DNA from: a virus
Length of the DNA stretch: 64,000 nt
Virus record (IMG/VR): IMGVR_UViG_3300045988_101835
Reading direction: 5' to 3' (one strand)
A program made the translations under genes and the position numbers. Below are positions 1,330 through 63,900 of the stretch, in pieces; the first letter of the stretch is position 1; each line of letters opens with the position of its first letter. A model generated the notes under the pieces. It was not told where the DNA came from and searched no databases. It saw nothing but the letters and a program-made list of their open reading frames with translations.

Positions 1330-1927
1330 CGACAGTGTGGTGTATACTCGCTTTTGCGAGATCATCAATGGGTTCACGGGTTATGCTATGACCCGTCAGG
1401 ACTTCGAGTCTATTCTGGAGCGATGTGGTAGTCCTTATGCGTGGAGTACGGTCCGGGCGTGGCTTAGGGGTTTGGAGCGCTTAGGCTTCGTTTATCCGTT
1501 GTATAACATCGACCAAGTGCGTTCGGGTGCTAAGCAGGTGTGGTTCTTGTATCATCCCTTGCTGCATCCTTTGCGTTCTACGGAGCTTAAGTACGCTAAG
1601 AGTCTTTCTCCTGTAGAGTCTATCCAGTTGAAGTTTTCTCCGGTTCTGTCTCGTTTAGGAGATACTCGTCCGTGGCATGCTGCTTTACATGCTATTAATT
1701 CTCGAGTTTTCCATGTAGACGTGAATCTTAAGTTCAAGATTGGTATGGGAGTTGTGAATCGGATTTTCGCTCCTCATGTTAATAGTTTGTTTGCGGCGCC
1801 TGTTGTATCTTCTATGTTTGTTATGAGCTTGATTGCTTCTGGGGTTTGTAAGAGGATTTACGAATTAAAGCTGCAGAAAGCCCACGCCTTTAGGCGTGGG
1901 ATGAATGCAGCCTATCTTTTCTTCTGA
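1310..1927 (+). CDS. hypothetical protein with its 3' end altered by the IS insertion
   Basis: 205-aa ORF. The last 22 codons plus stop (ELKLQKAHAFRRGMNAAYLFF*) are read from the IS left end. Joining the flanks across the IS restores ...GVCKRIYIWRL*. Confidence 0.45.
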   Translation: MGRFVSSDSVVYTRFCEIINGFTGYAMTRQDFESILERCGSPYAWSTVRAWLRGLERLGFVYPLYNIDQVRSGAKQVWFLYHPLLHPLRSTELKYAKSLSPVESIQLKFSPVLSRLGDTRPWHAALHAINSRVFHVDVNLKFKIGMGVVNRIFAPHVNSLFAAPVVSSMFVMSLIASGVCKRIYELKLQKAHAFRRGMNAAYLFF

Positions 1928-2310
1928 TCCTCGATATATCGACGTATTGTATCTTCAGAAATGTGTCCTATCGTCTCAACGTAATAGGATCGCGTCCAGA
2001 GGGTCGGCATGCGTGTCTGCAGCGACGGAAATTCAAGCCGGAGCGTATGTGATGTGTAACCCTTAAGCTGTGCCACAATCCGCGCAACCGGATCAATCGG
2101 GTTGGCCTTAATAAAAAGATGAACATGGTCGGGCATGACCTCCAGCGACTCGATAACCCATCCGAACTTGATAGCTTGCTCATGGAGCAAGACATTAAAA
2201 CGTTTTGCAATATCACCCGTTAAAACCTTTCGACGATACTTGGAGCACCAGATGATATGATAGGCTACATTATAGACGGAGCCTTTATTTATCTGCCAAC
2301 GGGTACGCAT
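1912..2310 (-). CDS. tnpA: IS200/IS605 Y1 (HUH) transposase TnpA
   Basis: 132 aa from the internal Met (MRTRWQINKG...). It has the HUH motif HVHLFI and a C-terminal catalytic Tyr region (WTRSYYVETIG). The track ORF 1912..2469 carries a spurious N-terminal extension that crosses the divergent promoter. Confidence 0.85.
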   Translation of the reverse strand: MRTRWQINKGSVYNVAYHIIWCSKYRRKVLTGDIAKRFNVLLHEQAIKFGWVIESLEVMPDHVHLFIKANPIDPVARIVAQLKGYTSHTLRLEFPSLQTRMPTLWTRSYYVETIGHISEDTIRRYIEDQKKR

Positions 2311-2318
2311 GGTTTTTA

Positions 2319-2350
2319 TTTGCAAAAATAGTATTCTATTCTTATATTTG
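2319..2350 (+). promoter_or_regulatory. Bacteroidota-type promoter for tnpB
   Basis: TTTG (2319-2322), 20-nt spacer, TATATTTG (2343-2350), 20 nt upstream of the tnpB ATG. Confidence 0.55.
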
Positions 2351-2369
2351 TGGCATAAAGAGTACAATA

Positions 2370-3500
2370 ATGTTGACCTACAAGTACAAACTCTATAGGA
2401 CGCATCGGACCATATGGTTGGATCGGATGCTTCGTGAGTGTGCGTTTGTATGGAACCATGCGCTTGCACTTCAACGTAGATACTACCATTTGTACGGTAA
2501 GTACGTTTCGTCGGTAGATATGCAGAAGCATTTCGCCAAACGCATCAAGCGGCATCTATTGTACTCACATAATAGCGTTGAGGTATTACAGAGATTGGAC
2601 GCAGCTTACCAACGGTTCTTCAAGAAGCTTGCTAAGCGTCCGCCTAAGTTTCGCCGGGCTTCAGACTTTCAGTCATTCGTCTACAAACTCCACTATGGCT
2701 ATAAAATAGACGGCAATTGCTTTACAATTAACAGACTTAAGAAAACTTATAAATTTCACAAATCCCGTGACTTTGCGGGTGCAATAAAGACGGTTCGTGT
2801 TAAACGCGATCCATGCGGTGACTTTTGGTTATACATTACAACCGATGCCAAAGTAGAAGCCAGCAACACGACATATGATGGTGCGGTTGTAGGAATTGAC
2901 TTTGGCCTTAAGACATATCTGACGTTATCCGACGGGCGCAGCTATGCGAACCCGCAATTCTTCAAGCAGACGCTGCGCGACATCCGTAAGGCGCATCGTC
3001 GGCTGAGCCGTTCCGTCAAAGGATCCAATAACCACCGCCGTCGGTGGTTGGAGCTTGGTCGGATCTACCGTAGGATTAGCAATCATCGCGACGATTATCA
3101 GTGGCGCTTGGCACATGAGTTATGTCGTCGTTATTCTACGATCTGCTTGGAGACACTAAGCCTTGACGGGATGCGCCGGTTGTGGGGTCGCAAGGTTTCG
3201 GATCTCAGCCACGCATCGTTCGTATCGCACTTGGAATTCGTAGCCACTAAGTATGGCACGAGCGTTGTGCATGTCGACAAGTGGTTTGCTAGCAGCAAGA
3301 CGTGTAGTTGTTGCGGATACGTTAATAAGGAGCTTCGTTTGGTTGCTCGATCGTGGGTTTGTCCACAATGTGGTACGCACCATGATCGTGATCTAAACGC
3401 GGCGTTAAACATTAAGCGTTCGGGCATGGGCGCGTTGATTAGTGGTTGTAAGTCCGCTTCGGCGGCCGCCATGCTTGAGTCAAGAATCCAGCGGCTTTAG
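2370..3500 (+). CDS. tnpB: TnpB (OrfB) RNA-guided RuvC nuclease
   Basis: 376 aa. RuvC triad context: VGIDFGLK, ICLETLSLDGM and HHDRDLNAALNI, plus the zinc ribbon CSCCGY...CPQCG. Confidence 0.9.
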   Translation: MLTYKYKLYRTHRTIWLDRMLRECAFVWNHALALQRRYYHLYGKYVSSVDMQKHFAKRIKRHLLYSHNSVEVLQRLDAAYQRFFKKLAKRPPKFRRASDFQSFVYKLHYGYKIDGNCFTINRLKKTYKFHKSRDFAGAIKTVRVKRDPCGDFWLYITTDAKVEASNTTYDGAVVGIDFGLKTYLTLSDGRSYANPQFFKQTLRDIRKAHRRLSRSVKGSNNHRRRWLELGRIYRRISNHRDDYQWRLAHELCRRYSTICLETLSLDGMRRLWGRKVSDLSHASFVSHLEFVATKYGTSVVHVDKWFASSKTCSCCGYVNKELRLVARSWVCPQCGTHHDRDLNAALNIKRSGMGALISGCKSASAAAMLESRIQRL

Positions 3501-3537
3501 CCGCGGGAGTATGTCAAATATGGAGGTTATGATCTCG
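3370..3537 (+). ncRNA. predicted omega (right-end) RNA of TnpB: scaffold plus about 20-nt guide
   Basis: Placed by analogy with characterised TnpB systems. The scaffold overlaps the tnpB 3' end and the RE hairpin (3488-3507). The guide would be the flank ATATGGAGGTTATGATCTCG (3518-3537). The 5' boundary is a guess. Confidence 0.35.
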
Positions 3538-33495: not shown

Positions 33496-33568
33496 TTTTG
33501 GTAAGGCGATTACATACAATTTTACACAACTGTTTGCAATAAACGTAAAATAATTGTAACTTGCTGCC

Positions 33569-34747
33569 ATGCATAAAGTATTCAAATATCGCATTTATCC
33601 GAACAAGGCTCAGCAGTCCTTGCTCCAAGTGACGTTTGGATGTTGCCGCTTCGTGTATAATAAAACACTTGATATTAGGAAGACGGCTTACGAAACCGAC
33701 AAGACGAAGCTTAGTAAGTTTGACCTCATCAAGAGATTAAAGCCACTTAAAGATGAATTCCCGTGGCTGCGCGACGTGCCGCATGTATGCTTGCCGCAAG
33801 CCGTCTACAACATGGATAGAGCTTACCAGAACTTCTTTAAGTCCGACAAAGGCTATCCGAAGTTCAAGACGAAGCATCGCAGCCGCAAATCTTGCAAATT
33901 CCCGTATCCGTTCTGTGATGTGCTTCAAGAGCAAGCGCGGCTCAAGTTTTCTAAATTAGGTTTAGTCAAGTACAAGAAAGATCGGGAGTTCGTTGGTACT
34001 TTACGACACATTGTGGTTACGCAAGACAGCGATGGTAAGTACTACGCTTCATGTTTGGTGGAGACTACTACGGAGATTCCGGAACCGCAACCTGTCGATG
34101 CCAGTACTACGGTCGGTATCGACTTAGGACTTAAAGACTTTATCGTCACGTCGGACGGACACAAGATACCTAATCCACGTTTCTACGCTACTATCGACCG
34201 TCGTATAGCACGCTTGCAGAAGCACGAAGCTAGAAAGACAAAAGGGTCTAAGCGCCGTGCACACATCCGGCTGAAGATTAACAAACTCTATATTAAGAAA
34301 CGCAATTTAATTAAAAATTATATTTACCATGTTGCCAAGACGTTACTGCGTGAAAGCCAAACGCTAGTAATGGAAGACCTTAATATTGTCGGCATGGTTA
34401 AGAATCATAAGTTAGCTAAATCCATTCAGAACATTTGTTGGGGCGAGCTTCGCAGAGTGTTAGAGTATAAGTCGAAGTGGCTTGGTCACAATCTTATTTT
34501 CATAGATCGTTGGGCGCCGAGTACAAAGACTTGTAGTTGTTGTGGTTTTCACAATTCTACGTTAACACTTTCAGATCGTTCATGGATGTGTCCGGGTTGC
34601 GGTACACAACACGACAGAGATGTTAATGCCGCGCTTAACATCAAGCGTATGGGTTTAGAAACATTACTGCCCGCGGTGAGCGGGTTTGACGGACGTGGAG
34701 AGGTCGGTTACGGCTTCGACGAAGCGTCAATATGTGCGAGTTATTAA
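33569..34747 (+). CDS. tnpB: TnpB (OrfB) RNA-guided nuclease, second copy (different lineage)
   Basis: 392 aa. Contains MHKVFKYRIYPNKAQ..., VGIDLGLKDF, LVMEDLNIVGM, the zinc ribbon CSCCGF...CPGCG, and QHDRDVNAALNIK. Confidence 0.9.
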   Translation: MHKVFKYRIYPNKAQQSLLQVTFGCCRFVYNKTLDIRKTAYETDKTKLSKFDLIKRLKPLKDEFPWLRDVPHVCLPQAVYNMDRAYQNFFKSDKGYPKFKTKHRSRKSCKFPYPFCDVLQEQARLKFSKLGLVKYKKDREFVGTLRHIVVTQDSDGKYYASCLVETTTEIPEPQPVDASTTVGIDLGLKDFIVTSDGHKIPNPRFYATIDRRIARLQKHEARKTKGSKRRAHIRLKINKLYIKKRNLIKNYIYHVAKTLLRESQTLVMEDLNIVGMVKNHKLAKSIQNICWGELRRVLEYKSKWLGHNLIFIDRWAPSTKTCSCCGFHNSTLTLSDRSWMCPGCGTQHDRDVNAALNIKRMGLETLLPAVSGFDGRGEVGYGFDEASICASY

Positions 34748-34765
34748 TTGTATATAATCACCTTT
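34685..34765 (+). repeat. IS right-end / omega-RNA 3' module, copy A (in situ)
   Basis: 81 nt covering the last 20 tnpB codons plus 18 nt. 74 of 81 positions are identical to 52103-52183. Confidence 0.85.
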
Positions 34766-48910: not shown

Positions 48911-50533
48911 ATGGGTAGGTTTTTTAAAGACGGTTTTCAGTTATTTCCGGAGCAGATTGAATTGGCTAAGGGTCTTTCTAGCCGTAAGCGTGCTATCCTG
49001 ATCGACAGTACGGGTAACGGCAAGACGCTTGTATGTTTATATTCCTACAGTTACTTGAAGTCGAAGGGTTTAGCAGATTGTCTTTTGGTTCTCACGCCTA
49101 AGAATGCTTATGACAAGCGGGTCTGGGCGAAGGATGCTGCGGCTCATACTCATTTGACGTCCATTTCTTTGGATGACTTCATCAAGAAGGTTTCTGGTGG
49201 TGCTGACGTTCTGGAGCTTCTGAATAGCTATGATGTTGTTTACGGCAAGCATACTCATTGCAAGACGGATTACGGTGTCCTTCGTCAGATTTATATGTCT
49301 TCTTGTAAGTTGGTTACGGTTCTTGATGAGGTCCATGCCTTCAAGAATTCGAAGGCTCAGCTTACTTCCACTATGAGTTTGCTTGTTAAGAACTGCTATG
49401 CGTTGTGGGGTGTTACTGCCACGGTGCTGAGTAAGAACTGCATGGATACCTACCATTTGGTTAACTTCGTCTATCCTCGGTTTTTCACGTCGGTTCGTGG
49501 GTTCCAGAGCCAGTTCTGTAAGGTCGAGGAGAAGGTCATTGGTCGCAATCCGGATAAGACTCTACGCAAGGCTCGTATCATTACGGATTATAAGGATAGC
49601 GCTGCTTTGATGGACTATCTACGTCCGGTTATGATTGTCGGCACGCCACCTGTTCCTTTAGATATTCACTTCATTGATTACACGATGTCGGCTTCTGAGC
49701 AGGACTTGTACGCTAAGGTTGCTAATGGTTTGATGTTGTCGGGCGAGAGTGATGACGCCACTTGGATTCAGCAGGTTGTGTCGCGTTCTGAGATTCGTGA
49801 GGGTGCCGTCCGGTCGGTCAAGGACTTGGAGCGTCATAGTTCTCGTTTTATCTATCTTCAGGCGGTCACGGATGGTTGCTTGAATTCGGATGGTACGTTT
49901 GGTGTTGGAGGTTCTCGCAAGCTGGATTCTTTACTGACGCTGGTCAGTGATATTGCTTCTCGGAACGAGTCGGTTTTGGTTTATTTCGATTTCTATTCGT
50001 CATTGGATGCTGCCATGTATCACCTTCAGCGTTCCGGCATTACGGATTCCCGTGGCAGGTCCATTGTCGTTGTTGAGTCTTCGTCTCGGAATGTCCTTAA
50101 GCCTACACAGGCTACGGAGTCGCAGTGCTTCATGAATAGTTATGTTATTCTGTGTACTCGTGCCGCTTCGGAGTCTGCCAATTACACTTACATTAATAAT
50201 GTCGTATTGTTCGACGTTCCGGTCACGCCTATTCCGTTCCTTCAGTTTATTGGCCGCATTACGCGCAAGACGAGTAAGTTTTTAGGTGATCTTCATTTGT
50301 GGATATTCCGCAGTGATGACATTTCGGAGTATAAGCTTCAGCTTGTAGGCTTCAAGGTTTATATGCAGGAGAAGATCAGCTTTGAGATTCATAATTTCCC
50401 GCGTGAGTATGTTAAGCCGATGTCGGATGCGGAGCACCTTCGAGTTGCAAAGCAGCATCTGCTGTGGAAGGGTCGCAAGCCGCGTCTTACGCGGTCGTCT
50501 CAGATTGTTCCGCAGGGCGGTACTCTCTTTTAG
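48911..50533 (+). CDS. SF2 (SNF2/DEAH-like) helicase
   Basis: Motif I DSTGNGKT, motif II LDEVHAF, motif III VTAT, motif VI QFIGRITR. Composition is backbone-like. Confidence 0.7.
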   Translation: MGRFFKDGFQLFPEQIELAKGLSSRKRAILIDSTGNGKTLVCLYSYSYLKSKGLADCLLVLTPKNAYDKRVWAKDAAAHTHLTSISLDDFIKKVSGGADVLELLNSYDVVYGKHTHCKTDYGVLRQIYMSSCKLVTVLDEVHAFKNSKAQLTSTMSLLVKNCYALWGVTATVLSKNCMDTYHLVNFVYPRFFTSVRGFQSQFCKVEEKVIGRNPDKTLRKARIITDYKDSAALMDYLRPVMIVGTPPVPLDIHFIDYTMSASEQDLYAKVANGLMLSGESDDATWIQQVVSRSEIREGAVRSVKDLERHSSRFIYLQAVTDGCLNSDGTFGVGGSRKLDSLLTLVSDIASRNESVLVYFDFYSSLDAAMYHLQRSGITDSRGRSIVVVESSSRNVLKPTQATESQCFMNSYVILCTRAASESANYTYINNVVLFDVPVTPIPFLQFIGRITRKTSKFLGDLHLWIFRSDDISEYKLQLVGFKVYMQEKISFEIHNFPREYVKPMSDAEHLRVAKQHLLWKGRKPRLTRSSQIVPQGGTLF

Positions 50534-50567
50534 TTTTTTTTTTCTGGTGTGTTCTAAACTTAAGACT

Positions 50568-52067
50568 ATGGAGGATATGTTTGGTGATTTAGGGATTGTT
50601 GACGCGCAGGGTTGGCGTGTCTCCGAGTTTTCTGCTGGCGGTGTTAACTCTCAGAAAGCCCGTCTTGCTTTAGAAGAGCGGTATTGGCCTATCACCGAAA
50701 TAACCGAGCGATTTAATCGTCAAAGCGTCAGTTATCAATTAAGCAAAAGAGATTGTCTGCATAAATGGTTAAAATACAAGGAGGGTTTTTCTGCCGAGTT
50801 GGTCAGTGCCCTTTTGCGTGATTTTCGTTTACAAAAGGGCGATCTAGTAGTAGATCCTTTTATGGGGTCAGGTACGACGGCTTTAGTATCAATGTTCAAT
50901 GGGTACAATAGTCTTGGTTTTGATATTTTGCCTATGTCAGAAATTGCTATTCGTGCAAAGACTGCTATTTATGTATATGATGTATTGGAGCTGAAGGAGC
51001 TTCTTAAAGAGGTGGTAAACTTGCACGTTCCGGAAGAGTATGCAGGGCGCACTCCTGAAATAGGAATTACTAAAGACGGTTATCCCAGTGAGACGAGTCG
51101 TGATTTGGCCTATTATAAAGAACATTTTCTCAATTCCAGATATTCTGAGACTACGAAAATGCTTCTTGAGCTTTGTACTTTGAATGCTTTGGAGCGTATA
51201 AGCTACTCTGCAAAAGATGGGCAATATCTTAGATGGGATTATCGCTGTCCCAAGATTACTGCTGCTTCGGAGGCTAGATTAAGACAGGGTAAGAAGCCTT
51301 TTGCTGTCAAATTGGATAAAGGGTCCTTGCCGTCCCTCAAAGAAGTATTACTGGAAGAATTAAGTGGTGTCCTTCGGGATATAGAATACTTAAATAATAC
51401 TCCTATTGGGTTTGATACGCAATGTAATTTTATTGAGGGAAGTGCGCTTTTTGAATTACCGAAGCTTGCAGACGGAACAGTTAGCGCAGTAATATCTTCT
51501 CCTCCATACTGTAACCGATATGATTACACTCGCACCTACGCTTTGGAGTTAGCCTATTTGGGGTTATCCGAGGCTGATGTGCGGGCATTACGTCAGGACT
51601 TATTGTCGTGTACAGTTGAGAATAAATCTAAAATTGAGCAACTGCGGGATTATTATCATCAAATAGGGCAGGAAGATCATTATGACAGGACAATGAAGAT
51701 CGTCGATGGAAATGCGGCACTTCAAGAAATAAATAACGCTTTGAAGAGCCGTAATGAAAACGGAGAGATAAACAATAAGGGAGTCCTTAAAATGGTGGAT
51801 GGGTATTTCACAGAATTGACCTTTCTGTTTTCTGAGTTGTATCGCGTATGTAAGACTGGTGCATACGTCGCTTTCGTTAATGATAACGTAAGGTATGCGG
51901 GCGAAGTTATTCCGGTTGATTTTCTCACTACCAATTTGGCCGAGCAAATAGGTTTTACTCCAGTAAAGATTTACACTTTAAAGCAACAAAAAGGTAATAG
52001 TAGTCAGCAGATGAAGAGATATGGACGAGTAGCTTTGCGAAAAAGCATTACTATTTGGCAGAAATAG
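50568..52067 (+). CDS. DNA methyltransferase (N4-C or N6-A; DPFxGSGTT ... SPPY)
   Basis: 499 aa from MEDMFGDL. Motif I is DPFMGSGTTAL and motif IV is SSPPYCNRYDY. Its A-rich neutral composition is unlike the backbone. The track start at 50382 overlaps the helicase gene and is rejected. Confidence 0.75.
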   Translation: MEDMFGDLGIVDAQGWRVSEFSAGGVNSQKARLALEERYWPITEITERFNRQSVSYQLSKRDCLHKWLKYKEGFSAELVSALLRDFRLQKGDLVVDPFMGSGTTALVSMFNGYNSLGFDILPMSEIAIRAKTAIYVYDVLELKELLKEVVNLHVPEEYAGRTPEIGITKDGYPSETSRDLAYYKEHFLNSRYSETTKMLLELCTLNALERISYSAKDGQYLRWDYRCPKITAASEARLRQGKKPFAVKLDKGSLPSLKEVLLEELSGVLRDIEYLNNTPIGFDTQCNFIEGSALFELPKLADGTVSAVISSPPYCNRYDYTRTYALELAYLGLSEADVRALRQDLLSCTVENKSKIEQLRDYYHQIGQEDHYDRTMKIVDGNAALQEINNALKSRNENGEINNKGVLKMVDGYFTELTFLFSELYRVCKTGAYVAFVNDNVRYAGEVIPVDFLTTNLAEQIGFTPVKIYTLKQQKGNSSQQMKRYGRVALRKSITIWQK

Positions 52068-52102
52068 CATTATATTTTTTGCGGTTACCTGTGTTGTATG
52101 CA

Positions 52103-52183
52103 TTTAACGGGCGTGAAGAGGTCGGTTGTGGCTTCGACGAAGCGTCAATATGTGCAAGTTATTAATTGTATATACTCACCTTT
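52103..52183 (+). repeat. orphan IS right-end / omega-RNA 3' module, copy B (relic of a tnpB 3' end)
   Basis: 74 of 81 positions match 34685-34765. It still encodes FNGREEVGCGFDEASICASY*, compared with FDGRGEVGYGFDEASICASY* in the intact tnpB. No tnpB body lies upstream. Confidence 0.85.
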
Positions 52184-52197
52184 TAAAATAGTATTTT

Positions 52198-52545
52198 ATG
52201 GATATTACGGGCATTTTTTCGGAGAGCTTTTGGTGGCTTGCTCCGGCACTTTCCGCCGCTACGGTTTTGCTGGCGGGTGTTGCTAATGGTCTTTTCAAGA
52301 TCACGAATGGTATCTGGCCGCAGGTTGTGGCTTGGGTTATCGGCACGGCTCTGTCGGTTGACGCCTACTTTGCGGGCTTGATTGAGATGGGTCAGCCGGA
52401 GTGGCTTGGTGTTGTGATGCTGTGTGTAGTCGTTGGTTTGTCTTCGAACGGCATCTACGACATTCCTGCCATTAAGGCATGGGTTGATGCTTGGTTCGCC
52501 AAGAAGCCTACGACCTCTACAGCCAAGAAGAAGACGCAGAAGTAG
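52198..52545 (+). CDS. holin-like membrane protein
   Basis: 115 aa with three hydrophobic segments and a Lys-rich C-terminal tail (KKPTTSTAKKKTQK). Confidence 0.4.
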   Translation: MDITGIFSESFWWLAPALSAATVLLAGVANGLFKITNGIWPQVVAWVIGTALSVDAYFAGLIEMGQPEWLGVVMLCVVVGLSSNGIYDIPAIKAWVDAWFAKKPTTSTAKKKTQK

Positions 52546-52572
52546 ATAGTTCTGCTCTGTGTGTAGGAGTTT

Positions 52573-52608
52573 AGTCCGGATGACTTTAGTTATATGGACT
52601 TTTTTTTT
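52573..52608 (+). terminator. rho-independent terminator
   Basis: Stem AGTCC (52573-77) pairs with GGACT (52596-600), followed by a run of T. Confidence 0.45.
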
Positions 52609-52635
52609 CGTTTAACATTGTTTTTTTTTTATAAA

Positions 52636-60956: not shown

Positions 60957-63900
60957 ATGGGTGATTTTTATACTCATGTTGTAGCGATCGATGATGATTC
61001 GATTGGTACGGCTCCGGAGTCCACGGGTGTTCGCCGTGTTGGTGACTCTGTTAGTTCGTTCCTGCAGGTGGAGTCGGGTGCTTCGCGTCGTGTTACGGAC
61101 GCGCGTCGTGGTGGTTTCACTGATGGGGAGATTCACAAGGTGGCTTGTAGTCTTTGCAGCATGTCGCGTGGCAGTCGCCGTGCGTCTTTGGCTAAGATGA
61201 GCGCTCCTTTGCGTCGTCGTCTTCTTGCGGAGGGTAAGCGCATTCAGTCTGTTGTTGCGGATTCGTTTATCGAGTACACGCCGGAGGTTTGCTGGGCCAT
61301 CAATGACATTATAGAGAATGACTCGTCTGCGGGTTATGACATCTTGAAGTCTAAGTACCGTTCTTTGCCGCCGGAGGTTAAGACGTTCTATGACGAGTTT
61401 TTGAAGAACCGTTACTCTCCTGCTGCTGTTCGTGCTCAGGAGATGTTGGGTCCTTATCGTCTTGTTCAGGATGACGCTCGTGTGGAGGCATTCCTTGAGG
61501 GTGGTTCTACGCAGGAGGGTGCTTTGGATGAGGTTATCGAGGCGGCTTCTGTTTCTGGCGAGGAGCTGTACGAGACTACTCAGGAGAAACTTGACGAGCT
61601 TGGCGAGCGTGCTCAGTCGGCAGCTATGACTTTCATTGAGGAGGTTTCTAATATCTACGAGGAGGGCATTGCGGATGTTGTTTCGGCCCAGACGTTGGCT
61701 TCCGCCGAGGAGGCTACGGAGGATGTCTTGGAGGCACCTATTCCGGAGGAGGATGTTGATGCCCTTCCTGATCCGAATGTGGATGATACGGATGCCGGAG
61801 CTTCTTCGGAGGTTCAGGATTCTGCCGCGTCTCCGGAGTTTGTTGTTCATGGTACTATTGATCCCGTAGATGATCCCGATTGGGCGTCTAAGAGTAAAGC
61901 TACCAATTGGGATATTGTAGACCTTGCTAGTTACACTCAGCGTCAGGAGTTCTTGGGTTCGCTTGGGAAGAAGGATGCTAAGGGTCGTGATCTTTATGGT
62001 CTTCGTTACTATTCTCCCAATGGTCGCAATTCGAGTGTTGCGGAGTTGATCTTCGAGGATTACTCTCGTTTGCTTGATCGTGCTAAGGCAGCATCATCGT
62101 CTAAGCCTGTTGCCGATGACGTCGATGGCTTGGTGTTGGCTTCGGAGCTTTCCGCTCAGCCGCTGCCTGCTGCTCAGGCGGCTCCAGTTGTTGAGGGTGC
62201 TATGTCGCAGGCTGTTCCGTCCGTTCCGGTTAACGTTGGTACTACGGTTCAGGTTTCGTATTTGGGTAATGTTTATTCGGGTGTCATCACTTCTGTTGGC
62301 AATGGTGTTGCCGTCATCGAGGGTCTTCCTTTTGAGTACTTCTCCTTGCGTCAGGCCGAGGGTGCCTTCACGGGTTCTGATGATGACGTGACTTTCGCCC
62401 TTGCGGATGTCGTTCCGGTTCAGATTGTCGAGGAGACGTCTGTTGCACCTTCGTCGAATGATGCTGACGTTATTATGGCTTCGGAGGATGTTGTTGAGGG
62501 CGATGATGCTCCGATAAGTGCGCCGGAGGAGACTCAGGTTACGGAGGATGAGATTATCGAGGATTCTGCTTCAGAGGAGTCTTCTAAGCTGATGGGTCGC
62601 ATTCTTAATGCCTACTTGGACCGGGGTGCTGCTGACGAGTTCGACGTCTATTTGACGGACGATAAGAGTGGTGGTCCTCGCCTGCATATCGTGTGCGGGG
62701 ATGATTCGCTTCATGCTTCTATTTTCTATCGTGGTAATCGTGGCTGGAATAAGGTTTATACCTTCGAGTCGGATGACGCTGCTATTGAGGCTGTCGAAGA
62801 GCTGACGGACGATGTTCTTGCGAAGCTTCCCGGCGTCATGGCGGAGCCTGTAGATGCTTCTGCTCTGCTGTTCGATAGTGTTCGTGACGATGTCGATCCT
62901 GCTGTTGTTTCGGAGTTCGAGTCTGTCGTGGGTCCTGAGATTCTCAACGACGTTGCTCCGCTTATTCATGTAGTTCATACGACCGAGGATGATGTTGTTC
63001 GACGGAGTGTATGGTCTTCGTTGAAGTCCATTGCGGAGGATATTATTCTGGACTTTGGTGACACTTTGGGTGGGTTGTCTGTAGGTGATATCTTGTCTAT
63101 CTTCAATAGTCACAAGTTTTCTACGCCGTGGGGTGCTGTTGTAGACTCTGCTGTTTCGGATGCTGCCGTTAACTTCACGGTCGATCAAATTATGACGGCT
63201 TTGCGCAATGGGGTTGACATTGCTAATGCGGATGATTCTGTATCTATCGTTTTTGATGATGGTGATGGTCTTGGTGATGTATTCGTATTCACCACGCCGT
63301 CGGGGTCGGTTGTTAAGGATGGCTCCGAGGCTGTTGCTTACTTGTCGGATCATCTTGCTGAGTTTAAGGACGCTATTTCGAATTCCTATGACGATATTTC
63401 AAAGGCTTTGGCTTCTGCGGGGTCCCCTACAGGCGAGGTTCCTGTGGAGGATGCGGAAGGCGATGTTTCTCCTGAAGTTGTGGTTGAAGATGCACCGCAT
63501 GCCGTAGACGAGACTTCCGATCCTGCAGCTATTGACTGGGGTGCTGTGGCTTTGGTTCTGAAGGACTGGGGTCTTGCTAATTGCTTCACTTTGGCTCAGA
63601 CGCCCGATCAGACTCATTTGGTTTCCGCTGCGGAGGCTTTGGCTTCGGCATTGTCTTCGGATACCCGTCTGGAGACTCGTCTTGATGCTTCTGTTCCTCG
63701 TATTCTTTGCAAGGATCAACGGTTTATTGACATCAAGGCCGATGGTGTCTATGTAGGCACTACGTTGTTTGTTTACCAGACTGCCGATGATGCTATTGTT
63801 ACCTTCGCGTCTACCATGTCGAATGCTGCTATTCAGCTTGCTCATAAGATTTACGATGCTACGGCTTCGGATGTTGTTGCTGAGGTTGCGAATGAGTTAT

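What the first reader, a model, noticed from the sequence alone, without database searches (positions are those of the whole stretch)
52103..52183. Orphan 81-nt copy of the second TnpB element's right end (omega-RNA 3' module) sits directly downstream of a foreign methyltransferase gene
Region 52103-52183 is 74/81 identical to 34685-34765, the last 20 codons of tnpB-2 plus 18 nt of right end. Both copies stop matching at the same point (after ...TCACCTTT), which defines a common element boundary. Copy B has no tnpB body. Instead, the 1.5-kb DNA methyltransferase gene ends 35 nt upstream of it. One possibility is a decayed IS whose interior was replaced by the MTase. The other is a cargo cassette that keeps only the RNA-guide-producing end and could use TnpB-2 in trans. 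In that case the adjacent flank TAAAATAGTATTTTATGG... would be its guide, giving RNA-guided retention or homing of a methyltransferase. I am not aware of the second arrangement having been described.
Basis: partly seen in the sequence, partly recalled or inferred. Interest (0 to 1): 0.7.

Follow-up and report, generated by a model that had tools for sequence, protein, structure and literature searches.

The report
Leftover end of a phage transposon
The 81-base repeat is a real leftover of the right end of a TnpB-carrying mobile element in a human-gut phage, but it is most likely a dead scar that sits next to the methyltransferase gene by coincidence, not a guide-RNA device that helps that gene spread.

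Summary
Observation confirmed. Window 52103-52180 matches the last 78 nt of the TnpB-2 element (34685-34762) at 71/78 and ends at the family-wide terminus ...AATCACC. The extra TTT is flank.

Interpretation mostly not supported.
- The closest relatives (L015, L016) have the same helicase-MTase layout without the relic.
- The MTase cassette shared with an unrelated phage and a bacterial BsoBI-type R-M locus spans only 50555-52079.
- No left end lies near the MTase.
- A second orphan with the same left limit sits at an unrelated locus with no MTase (L050; empty site in L039).
- Copy B keeps three 3' helices. It lacks hairpin H1, whose loop pairs with the 3' tail in a pseudoknot supported by covariation.

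Both orphans begin at the 3' foot of H1. Both are followed on the right by a diverged tract (52186-52620 here).

Best reading: a solo right end made when an element was copied incompletely from a donor phage during recombinational repair. In-situ deletion is the main rival. I put about 0.85 on a non-functional scar unrelated to the MTase.

Side findings:
- The TnpB-2 family has 17-18-bp terminal inverted repeats and 8-bp target duplications, unlike IS605.
- A sister family has about 140-nt tnpB-less miniature elements with a complete scaffold.

The parts
52103..52180 (+). Orphan right-end unit (copy B) of a TnpB-2-family element. 52103-52114 is the junction overlap. 52115-52180 is found only in the relic-bearing lineage.
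   Evidence: 71/78 identical to 34685-34762. Family profile E=1.9e-20. Relatives L015/L016 share the sequence up to 52114 and again from 52181.
52164..52180 (+). Right terminal inverted repeat (AATTGTATATACTCACC), with one substitution unique to copy B (52175 A>C)
   Evidence: The family right end ...AATTGTATATAATCACC is the reverse complement of the family left end GGTGATTATATACAATT. The substitution is listed.
52068..52102 (+). Spacer between the MTase stop and the relic: not element-derived, and shared with Type II relatives that lack the relic
   Evidence: L015/L016 are homologous up to 52114/52134. MTase-cassette homology with the bacterial locus L017 ends at 52079.
50555..52079 (+). Foreign DNA methyltransferase cassette (gene 50568-52067, 499 aa, N6_N4_Mtase)
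   Evidence: Pfam and PHROG hits. 86% nt identity to the unrelated phage L014 and 80% to the bacterial locus L017 next to a BsoBI-family endonuclease, limited to these coordinates. AT skew differs from neighbouring genes.
52186..52620 (+). Diverged tract immediately right of the relic, covering the 115-aa gene (52198-52545): inferred donor-derived sequence that arrived with the relic
   Evidence: 36 of 37 mismatches to L015 fall in this tract, then 1 in the next 784 nt. Most of the differences are shared by L015, L016 and L002, so the window is the outlier. The exact 115-aa protein was found only in relic-bearing contigs.
33505..34762 (+). Full-length TnpB-2 element (copy A): left TIR from 33505, tnpB-2 at 33569-34747, right end to 34762
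   Evidence: Pfam HTH_OrfB_IS605, OrfB_IS605 and Cas12f1-like_TNB. E=2.8e-63 to ISDra2 TnpB with the RuvC motifs present. Boundaries come from more than 10 independent copies.
34669..34685 (+). Hairpin H1 (GCCCGC-GGTGA-GCGGGT) of copy A. Its loop is complementary to the 3' tail TCACC (34758-34762). It is missing from copy B, and copy B's homology starts at its 3' foot.
   Evidence: Covariation counts. Copy B scored against the family helices.

Best explanation
Copy B is a non-functional solo right end, a scar, of a TnpB-2-family element. Its position next to the methyltransferase is coincidental.

Proposed history:
1. An ancestor of this phage already carried the foreign MTase between the helicase gene and the 115-aa gene, followed by about 230 nt of native spacer. 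This is the Type II layout still seen in L015 and L016.
2. The region just upstream of the 115-aa gene was broken and then repaired using a diverged, co-infecting relative as template. That relative carried a TnpB-2-type element upstream of its own 115-aa gene.
3. Copying entered from the homologous right flank, which left about 440 nt of donor sequence (52186-52620). It continued into the element's right end and stopped at the 3' foot of the stable hairpin H1.
4. The truncated end was joined to the left side of the break at an imperfect 12-nt microhomology (TTTAACGGGCGT). The 230-nt spacer was lost in the process.

The result keeps the right terminal inverted repeat and three 3' helices. It has no tnpB, no left end and no H1/pseudoknot partner, so it can neither transpose nor, most likely, form a TnpB-binding guide RNA.

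What is shown: the anatomy, the separability from the MTase, the shared left limit of two independent orphans, and the right-side diverged tracts. What is inferred: the break, the donor and the stall at H1.

Confidence in this specific mechanism is about 0.45. Confidence that it is a scar of some kind, unrelated to the MTase, is about 0.85.
For: 1. Type II relatives (96% and 93.5% identical) have helicase-MTase-spacer-115-aa gene with no relic. Type I relatives have neither the MTase nor the relic. Types I and II share the native sequence GGTTTT(T)CATTTT just upstream of the 115-aa gene, and the window lacks it, so the window is the derived state.
2. MTase homology with L014 and L017 is limited to 50555-52079.
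3. The left-end profile finds no left end near the MTase or the relic.
4. A second orphan (L050:627-703) lies at a locus whose genes have no homolog in the window. It has the same left limit, TTT[G/A]ACGG. A clean empty-site counterpart exists in L039, and no MTase lies within the 8-kb locus.
5. Both orphans are followed on the right by a sharply bounded diverged tract. In the window, 36 of 37 mismatches fall in 52186-52620. In L050, divergence is 16-27% over 705-900 and under 1% afterwards. The sequence just left of the L050 orphan is near-identical to the empty site.
6. The left junction in the window overlaps 12 nt of similarity between the recipient spacer and the element.
7. Copy B keeps 21/21 pairs of helices H3, H4 and H5 but not H1, and only 3 of 5 pseudoknot pairs. 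H1 and the pseudoknot are supported by covariation: pair 21-108 is A-U in 21 sequences and G-C in 10, all six H1 pairs covary, and 0 of 500 shuffles reach the observed scores.
8. The ISDra2 omega-RNA needs a 116-nt scaffold that includes the pseudoknot partner at -103..-105 (PMC10097598).
Against: 1. No donor or progenitor was found with a full element abutting this allele of the 115-aa gene: 0 hits in IMG/VR, and only chance hits in JGI metagenomes.
2. Only two orphans are known, so the shared left limit could be coincidence. I estimate roughly 2% for random endpoints, and a hairpin-driven deletion hotspot would also explain it.
3. The diverged right-hand tracts could reflect ordinary mosaic recombination in variable genes.
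4. The relic is 100% conserved in 10 relic-bearing contigs and differs by one 1-nt indel in two more. Diversity is low across the whole MTase-to-115-aa stretch, so this neither supports nor excludes selection.
5. Nothing here tests transcription or TnpB binding.
Confidence: 0.45

Rival explanations
1. In-situ decay. A full-length TnpB-2-type element transposed into the site just upstream of the 115-aa gene in this lineage. A later spontaneous deletion between short similar sequences then removed the left end, almost all of tnpB, hairpin H1 and 230 nt of adjacent spacer. The outcome is the same non-functional scar. Only the route differs.
For: The 12-nt imperfect similarity at the left junction fits a microhomology deletion. 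The route is documented in the sister family: L123 is the same insertion as L069, with identical flanks, but has lost its left end between AAAA repeats. Family members do transpose, shown by perfect 8-bp target duplications in L031, L033 and L013a.
Against: It needs two independent deletions (window and L050) to end at the same nucleotide at the foot of H1. In L050 the deletion would also have to start exactly at the element's left boundary, because the left flank is intact. It does not by itself explain the sharply bounded diverged tracts to the right of both orphans.
Confidence: 0.35
2. Exapted regulatory piece. The 78-nt unit is kept because it supplies a promoter, a 5'-UTR or an insulating structure for the gene that starts 16-17 nt downstream of it.
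For: Both orphans sit at almost the same distance from a start codon: CACC + 17 nt + ATG in the window and CACC + 16 nt + ATG in L050. In the window lineage the native spacer was lost, and in L015 that spacer carries the phage motif and a Bacteroidota-type promoter-like sequence. In distant relatives L005-L008 the phage motif GCAATTATATATCC occupies about the same position upstream of the 115-aa gene.
Against: The phage motif is nearly invariant: 8 perfect copies and 1 with a single mismatch. The relic's terminus is not within 3 mismatches of it. No sigma-70-type promoter or terminator was predicted in the relic. Several full-length copies also land 3-16 nt upstream of start codons, so the spacing is not specific to orphans. 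Nearly all genes are on one strand, so read-through transcription is sufficient.
Confidence: 0.08
3. Functional guide module in trans. The relic is transcribed with its flank, bound by TnpB-2 made from copy A, and directs cleavage of genomes that lack the MTase-relic arrangement. This would drive retention or homing of the MTase.
For: An apparently intact TnpB-2 is encoded in the same genome. Copy B keeps the three 3' helices and the exact terminus next to which a guide would start. tnpB-less elements with complete scaffolds do exist in related phages, so supply of TnpB in trans is plausible in principle.
Against: Copy B lacks H1 and the pseudoknot partner, which are conserved, covary and are retained by the tnpB-less miniature elements. 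The 78 nt fall short of the 116-nt scaffold, pseudoknot partner included, that ISDra2 TnpB uses. The flank mismatches the alternative alleles at 2-3 of positions 1-12. The MTase and the relic occur independently of each other. No conserved TAM-like motif flanks the family's insertions.
Confidence: 0.04
4. The MTase is cargo of the element, or replaced its interior. A TnpB-2-type element once spanned the region and its tnpB was swapped for the MTase.
For: The left edge of the MTase-plus-relic block (50534) and its right edge (52180) together coincide with the indel boundaries against Type I relatives.
Against: Type II relatives carry the MTase at the same place with native spacer and no relic. 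The MTase homology unit ends 24 nt before the relic starts, and there is no left end. The 34 nt between the helicase stop and the MTase start show no similarity to the family left end.
Confidence: 0.03

Closest known systems
Solo or truncated insertion-sequence ends (IS remnants) left by deletion or incomplete repair. The classic parallel, from my own knowledge, is the internally deleted P elements and Ac/Ds derivatives made by interrupted synthesis-dependent strand annealing.
   Same: One authentic terminus is kept. The transposase or effector gene and the other end are gone. The junction shows microhomology, adjacent host sequence is lost, and no further mobility is expected.
   Different: Two independent remnants share the same internal breakpoint at the foot of a hairpin. 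Each is attached to a co-converted flank. The setting is a phage population, not a cellular chromosome.
PATEs/MITEs of IS200/IS605 elements: tnpB-less derivatives that keep both ends and the omega-RNA region and rely on proteins supplied in trans (background: PMC3119063, PMC13565253)
   Same: They have no tnpB and overlap the omega-RNA-encoding right end. True examples are present in this very phage group: the 166-nt TnpB-1 derivative inserted 3' of TTAC and the ~140-nt sister-family miniature elements.
   Different: Copy B has no left end and an incomplete scaffold (no H1, no pseudoknot partner). It is therefore not a member of this class.
TnpB/omega-RNA restorative homing of IS605-type elements (reviewed in PMC13565253; structural requirements in PMC10097598)
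   Same: The parent element encodes a close ISDra2-TnpB homolog with RuvC motifs. It also has a structured 3' region with a pseudoknot next to the element boundary. The diverged flank tracts resemble the co-conversion expected from break-induced copying.
   Different: The parent family has terminal inverted repeats and 8-bp target duplications, and no conserved target motif 5' of the left end. It therefore does not move like IS605. No evidence here shows that TnpB made the break.
TnpB/Fanzor genes inside TIR-bounded, TSD-generating transposons: Fanzor1/2 in eukaryotes (PMC3627910, PMC10711439) and rare prokaryotic cases (PMC13565253)
   Same: A TnpB-only, non-autonomous unit flanked by TIRs and short target duplications. 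The TIR forms part of the predicted guide-RNA scaffold.
   Different: These are elements of bacteriophages. They are multi-copy within single phage genomes. The transposase that moves them is unidentified.

Membership tests
Functional omega-RNA (TnpB guide RNA) gene - copy B | Complete scaffold, including the pseudoknot that pairs the nucleotides next to the guide with an upstream partner | tested here: not met
   H1 loop GGUGA pairs with tail UCACC in the family. The pairing shows a compensatory change in the sister family (GGUAG with UUACC; pair 21-108 is A-U in 21 sequences and G-C in 10). Copy B has no H1 and forms only 3 of 5 pseudoknot pairs. ISDra2 needs 116 nt including the partner.
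Functional omega-RNA (TnpB guide RNA) gene - copy B | 3' scaffold helices and the exact element terminus adjacent to a guide | tested here: met
   21/21 pairs of H3, H4 and H5 are retained, and the terminus ...CTCACC is intact apart from one substitution.
Functional omega-RNA (TnpB guide RNA) gene - copy B | A cognate, catalytically competent TnpB available | tested here: met
   TnpB-2 (33569-34747) matches ISDra2 TnpB at E=2.8e-63 and has the GIDLG, EDLN and DRDVNAA motifs.
Functional omega-RNA (TnpB guide RNA) gene - copy B | Transcribed and processed into a discrete RNA bound by TnpB | not testable with these tools
   No expression data are available. No predicted promoter or terminator lies between the MTase and the 115-aa gene.
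Miniature non-autonomous element (MITE/PATE) | Both element ends present, flanking a short internal region | tested here: not met
   The left-end profile finds no left end near 52103 in the window and none in L050. The left flank of L050 is continuous with the empty site.
Mobile cargo cassette (MTase + right end moving together) | The two parts co-occur with the same junctions in different genomic contexts | tested here: not met
   MTase without relic: L015, L016 and L017; L014 ends at the MTase stop, so its downstream side is unseen. Relic without MTase: L050. They occur together only in one near-clonal phage lineage.
IS200/IS605 family (parent TnpB-2 element) | No terminal inverted repeats and no target-site duplication; ends carry subterminal hairpins; inserts 3' of a conserved 4-5-nt target (PMC13565253) | tested here: not met
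   17-18-bp TIR: GGTGATTATATACAATT at the left, AATTGTATATAATCACC at the right. Perfect 8-bp duplications in L031 (TTTCAAGA), L033 (TAATTGCA) and L013a (TGCATGAG). No conserved motif lies 5' of the left end across about 10 sites.
IS200/IS605 family (parent TnpB-2 element) | Encodes a TnpB of the OrfB_IS605 type | tested here: met
   Pfam PF12323, PF01385 and PF07282, all above their cutoffs.
IS200/IS605 family (TnpB-1 element, 1862-3517, for contrast) | tnpA plus tnpB, hairpin ends, insertion 3' of TTAC, right end finishing in TCAA | tested here: met
   The sequence shows TTAC|GAATT... at the left and ...GTCAA| at the right, with a divergent ORF that I take to be tnpA from its position and size but did not scan. 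tnpB-1 matches PHROG transposase families. A precise 166-nt derivative and its empty site are aligned.

The most novel reading that the evidence does not exclude
The 78-nt unit is not inert. It could be a recurrent, discrete module, found at two unrelated loci with identical limits, each 16-17 nt upstream of a start codon. It would be transcribed with its flank and used by TnpB-2 in trans as a shortened guide RNA without a pseudoknot, or as a decoy that titrates TnpB. In this phage that would tie RNA-guided cleavage to the junction carrying the foreign methyltransferase.
Probability: 0.04. Interest if true: 0.7.

Novelty: new member of a known kind. Interest (0 to 1): 0.3.

Why it matters
As posed, an RNA-guided device that retains or spreads a methyltransferase would have been a new kind of cargo mobilisation. 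The evidence says it is not that. It is an ordinary transposon scar beside an independently acquired anti-restriction gene.

Three things remain of value:
1. Two independent scars end at the same hairpin foot and carry co-converted flanks. This looks like a natural footprint of break-induced copying of TnpB elements between co-infecting phages. If more cases confirm it, they would be population-level evidence for a homing-like spread that so far rests mainly on laboratory assays.
2. The parent family is a TnpB element bounded by inverted repeats and 8-bp target duplications, multi-copy in gut phage genomes. That is a rare arrangement for prokaryotic TnpB.
3. A sister family has many tnpB-less miniature elements that keep the whole guide-RNA scaffold. 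Those are the real candidates for trans-acting guides in these phages.

Tried and rejected
1. Left end near the MTase. An nhmmer profile of 11 family left ends found none.
2. Progenitor with a full right end abutting the 115-aa gene. There were 0 hits in IMG/VR. The five JGI metagenome hits were unrelated chance matches.
3. An older, decayed relic hidden in the Type II spacer or in the L005-type intergenic region. The profile search found nothing, and local alignments against shuffled controls were not significant (p=0.17, 0.14, 0.43). An apparent full-length MAFFT alignment was therefore discounted.
4. Selection on the relic. It is 100% identical in 10 contigs and differs by one 1-nt indel in two more, but the whole MTase-to-115-aa stretch has low diversity, so the result is uninformative.
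5. Promoter mimicry of the phage motif GCAATTATATATCC. The relic's terminus is not within 3 mismatches, whereas true copies have 0-1.
6. Rfam has no family covering either copy; it found only tRNAs.
7. Sigma-70-type promoter and terminator scans found nothing in or beside the relic.
8. A weak profile hit at 62422-62458 (E=0.03) looks like ordinary coding sequence.
9. TAM inference for TnpB-2 from insertion flanks gave no consistent motif.
10. The target duplication around the L050 orphan is ambiguous. ATGGTTT occurs on both sides, but it is offset by 1-3 nt from the unit's ends.

Full report
OBSERVATION

The repeat exists as described. Window 52103-52183 matches 34685-34765 at 74/81. Copy A is the last 20 codons of tnpB-2 (33569-34747; Pfam HTH_OrfB_IS605, OrfB_IS605 and Cas12f1-like_TNB) plus the element's right end. 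Copy B has no tnpB. It lies 35 nt after the stop codon of a 499-aa N6/N4 DNA methyltransferase gene (50568-52067) and 17 nt before a 115-aa ORF (52198-52545). A profile built from 11 family right ends hits copy B at E=1.9e-20.

Two corrections apply. About 14 independent copies of the family all end at ...AATCACC(T), so the element-derived part stops at 52180/52181 and the terminal TTT is coincidental flank. Separately, the first 12 nt (52103-52114) are also present in relatives that lack the relic.

WHAT THE RELATIVES SHOW

The window is from a phage of about 100-140 kb that is common in human-gut metagenomes. Three layouts exist between the helicase gene (stop at 50533) and the 115-aa gene.
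- Type I (L001-L004): three small ORFs in 1043 nt, with no MTase and no relic.
- Type II (L015, L016; 96% and 93.5% identical to the window): helicase, MTase, 46 nt of shared sequence, then about 230 nt of spacer carrying the phage's own intergenic motif and a promoter-like sequence, then the 115-aa gene. There is no relic, and the right-end profile finds nothing there.
- Type III (the window and at least 23 contigs): MTase, relic, 115-aa gene, with exactly 130 nt between the two genes in the 10 loci listed from the 115-aa look-up; L018 and L019 carry one extra T in that spacer.

Types I and II share GGTTTT(T)CATTTT immediately upstream of the 115-aa gene. The window lacks it, so Type III is the derived state.

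The MTase is a mobile unit in its own right. An unrelated phage (L014, 86% nt identity) and a bacterial locus where it follows a BsoBI-family endonuclease (L017, 80%) are homologous to the window only over 50555-52079. Its AT skew also differs from the neighbouring genes. A profile of family left ends finds no left end near the MTase.

The MTase was therefore neither brought in by the element nor sits between its ends. The relic arrived later.

THE PARENT ELEMENT IS NOT IS605-LIKE

Comparing more than 10 independent insertions gives a tnpB-only element of about 1.26 kb. Its left end, GGTGATTATATACAATT, is the reverse complement of its right end, AATTGTATATAATCACC. Three independent copies have perfect 8-bp target duplications: L031 TTTCAAGA, L033 TAATTGCA and L013a TGCATGAG. 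No conserved motif precedes the left end.

IS200/IS605 elements have neither inverted repeats nor target duplications and insert next to a fixed 4-5-nt motif. Prokaryotic TnpB inside TIR-bounded elements is described as rare (PMC13565253).

The TnpB-1 element of the same window (1862-3517) behaves classically by contrast. It has tnpB-1 and a divergent upstream ORF that I take to be tnpA from its position (not scanned), it follows a TTAC target, and it ends in TCAA. Relatives carry a precise 166-nt tnpB-less derivative, for which the window holds the empty site.

TnpB-2 itself is a close homolog of ISDra2 TnpB (E=2.8e-63) with the RuvC motifs present.

RNA STRUCTURE AND WHAT COPY B KEEPS

The last ~95 nt of the family fold into four elements:
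- hairpin H1 (GCCCGC-GGUGA-GCGGGU);
- a nested pair of helices, H3 and H4;
- helix H5, which includes the TIR;
- a 3' tail, UCACC, complementary to the H1 loop.

On 11 family members, 98% of cells pair, six pairs show compensatory changes and 0 of 500 shuffles reach the observed scores.

A 15-mer scan of IMG/VR uncovered a sister family whose TnpB is about 42% identical. There the H1 loop is GGUAG and the tail is UUACC. On the combined 33-sequence alignment the pseudoknot pair 21-108 is A-U in 21 sequences and G-C in 10, and all six H1 pairs covary. This mirrors the pseudoknot of the ISDra2 omega-RNA, whose functional scaffold is 116 nt with the partner at -103..-105 (PMC10097598).

Copy B keeps H3, H4 and H5 (21/21 pairs) and the tail. 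It has no H1, and only 3 of 5 pseudoknot pairs could form with the unrelated sequence in its place. By analogy it is unlikely to bind TnpB productively. This step is inferred, not tested.

The would-be guide (TTTTAAAATAGTATTT...) differs from the Type II and Type I alleles at three and two of the first 12 positions respectively (sequences). In ISDra2, double mismatches in that stretch abolish cleavage.

A SECOND ORPHAN, AND A SHARED SIGNATURE

A scan of bacterial and archaeal genome contigs found an 88-kb phage-like contig binned with a Muribaculaceae MAG. It holds two full copies and one orphan (L050:627-703).

The orphan starts at TTGACGG, the same point as copy B, which is the 3' foot of H1. 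It ends at AATCACC and lies 16 nt before a start codon. The flanking genes have no homolog in the window, so the locus is unrelated to copy B's. No MTase lies within the 8-kb locus.

L039 is the matching empty site. The left flank is continuous right up to the unit.

Both orphans are followed on the right by a sharply bounded diverged tract.
- Window against L015: 36 of 37 mismatches lie in 52186-52620, then 1 in the next 784 nt. Most of these differences are shared by L015, L016 and L002, so the window allele is the outlier.
- L050 against L039: 16-27% divergence over 705-900, then under 1%. The 110 nt to the left of the unit contain a single mismatch.

The exact 115-aa protein of the window was found only in relic-bearing contigs.

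MECHANISM

The simplest account of all these features is incomplete copying of an element from a diverged donor genome during recombinational repair. The features to explain are an authentic right terminus, a shared internal limit at a stable hairpin, donor-like sequence on the right only, and a microhomology join on the left, with loss of 230 nt in the window and none in L050.

In this account, synthesis enters from the homologous right flank, runs into the right end, halts at H1, and the end is joined by microhomology. I give this about 0.45.

In-situ microhomology deletion of a resident full copy gets about 0.35 and gives the same end product. That route is documented for the sister family: L123 is an L069-type insertion that lost its left end between AAAA repeats. 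However, it needs the same endpoint twice and does not predict the diverged tracts.

Either way the relic is a scar, which I put at about 0.85 combined.

The remaining readings are less likely:
- a regulatory exaptation, about 0.08;
- a functional guide acting in trans, about 0.04;
- the MTase as element cargo, about 0.03.
The reasons are given with each rival.

WHAT LED NOWHERE

- No progenitor was found.
- No older relic is hidden in the Type II spacer.
- Conservation of the relic across strains is uninformative, because the whole region has low diversity.
- The relic's terminus does not match the phage's near-invariant intergenic motif.
- Rfam and the simple promoter/terminator scans gave nothing relevant.

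COMPARISON WITH KNOWN SYSTEMS, AND NOVELTY

The thing itself is a solo transposon end, which is a known kind of object. It is not a PATE or MITE, because it has no left end. It is not a complete omega-RNA gene, because it has no pseudoknot partner. It is not part of an MTase cassette.

One case is the 166-nt TnpB-1 derivative. The other is the roughly 40 sister-family miniature elements of about 140 nt, in 28 distinct contexts. All share one internal junction, keep the whole scaffold, and sometimes lie on the same contig as a full-length copy (L094, L132).

VERDICT

Noticed in passing
window 33505-34762; loci L013, L030-L042: The TnpB-2 family is a tnpB-only element with 17-18-bp terminal inverted repeats (GGTGATTATATACAATT / AATTGTATATAATCACC). 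Three independent copies have perfect 8-bp target duplications, and no conserved target motif precedes the left end. It is present in several copies per phage genome: at least 6 on IMGVR_UViG_3300023490_000005. This is not how IS200/IS605 elements move, and the transposase responsible is unknown.
   Followed up: partly
IMG/VR loci L056-L159 (for example L058, L069, L094, L132): A sister family has full-length tnpB-only elements (TnpB about 42% identical to TnpB-2) plus about 40 loci, in 28 distinct contexts, of ~140-nt tnpB-less miniature elements. Each miniature element is the first ~38 nt of the left end joined to the last ~100 nt of the right end. All share one junction (AAATTAG|TATCACCC) and keep H1, the pseudoknot, H3 and H5. 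Some lie on the same contig as a full-length copy. They are candidates for guide RNAs served by TnpB in trans.
   Followed up: partly
window 1862-3517 and 55630|55631; L001:3368-3533, L018, L023, L026, L048, L049: The TnpB-1 element is an IS608-like unit: tnpB-1 plus a divergent upstream ORF that is probably tnpA (not scanned), inserted 3' of TTAC and ending in TCAA. Relatives carry a precise 166-nt tnpB-less derivative (about 55 nt of left end plus 128 nt of right end) in the tRNA region. The window has the empty site there, with ATAC in place of TTAC.
   Followed up: partly
L050:627-703 and L039 (reverse complement, about 500-565): A second orphan 77-78-nt right-end unit has the same left limit as copy B. 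It lies at an unrelated locus, with a clean empty-site counterpart and a 200-nt highly diverged tract on its right.
   Followed up: yes
window 7402, 11430, 15452, 17725, 25685, 29712, 39846, 43187, 60375 (+ strand): A near-invariant 14-mer, GCAATTATATATCC (8 perfect copies and 1 with a single mismatch; at most 11 matches in any of 100 shuffles, against 14 observed at up to 3 mismatches), usually followed by YAnAAAT. It lies in short gaps between ORFs, the motif and its AAAT tail ending about 7-27 nt before the next start codon. It is probably a phage-specific promoter or regulatory signal. TnpB-2-family elements are sometimes inserted in or beside it (L033, L034, L037).
   Followed up: partly
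L025:2371-3870, L028:2370-3870: In two otherwise near-identical strains the MTase gene is split into two ORFs (77+417 aa and 65+422 aa). The foreign MTase may therefore be decaying in part of the population.
   Followed up: no
L017:371-2845: The closest bacterial relative of the MTase (80% nt identity) sits directly after a BsoBI-family restriction endonuclease gene. The phage copy is probably a captured modification enzyme used against that type of restriction system.
   Followed up: partly
window 55574-55874; L003:6578-7831, L022, L024: In some relatives a full TnpB-2-type element abuts tRNA-Ser and takes the place of 300 nt that are present in the window. Together with the TnpB-1 derivative nearby, this makes the tRNA cluster (54706-56322) a hotspot for element insertion and rearrangement.
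   Followed up: no
window 55879-55967 and 56236-56322: ARAGORN calls two tRNA-Ser genes with A at the first anticodon position (ACT and AGA). That is unusual for bacterial-type tRNAs and may be worth checking.
   Followed up: no
L123:9477-9579 versus L069:6725-6827: The same sister-family miniature-element insertion exists with its left end (L069) and without it (L123). The loss lies between AAAA repeats. This is a direct example of a solo right end produced by microhomology deletion.
   Followed up: partly
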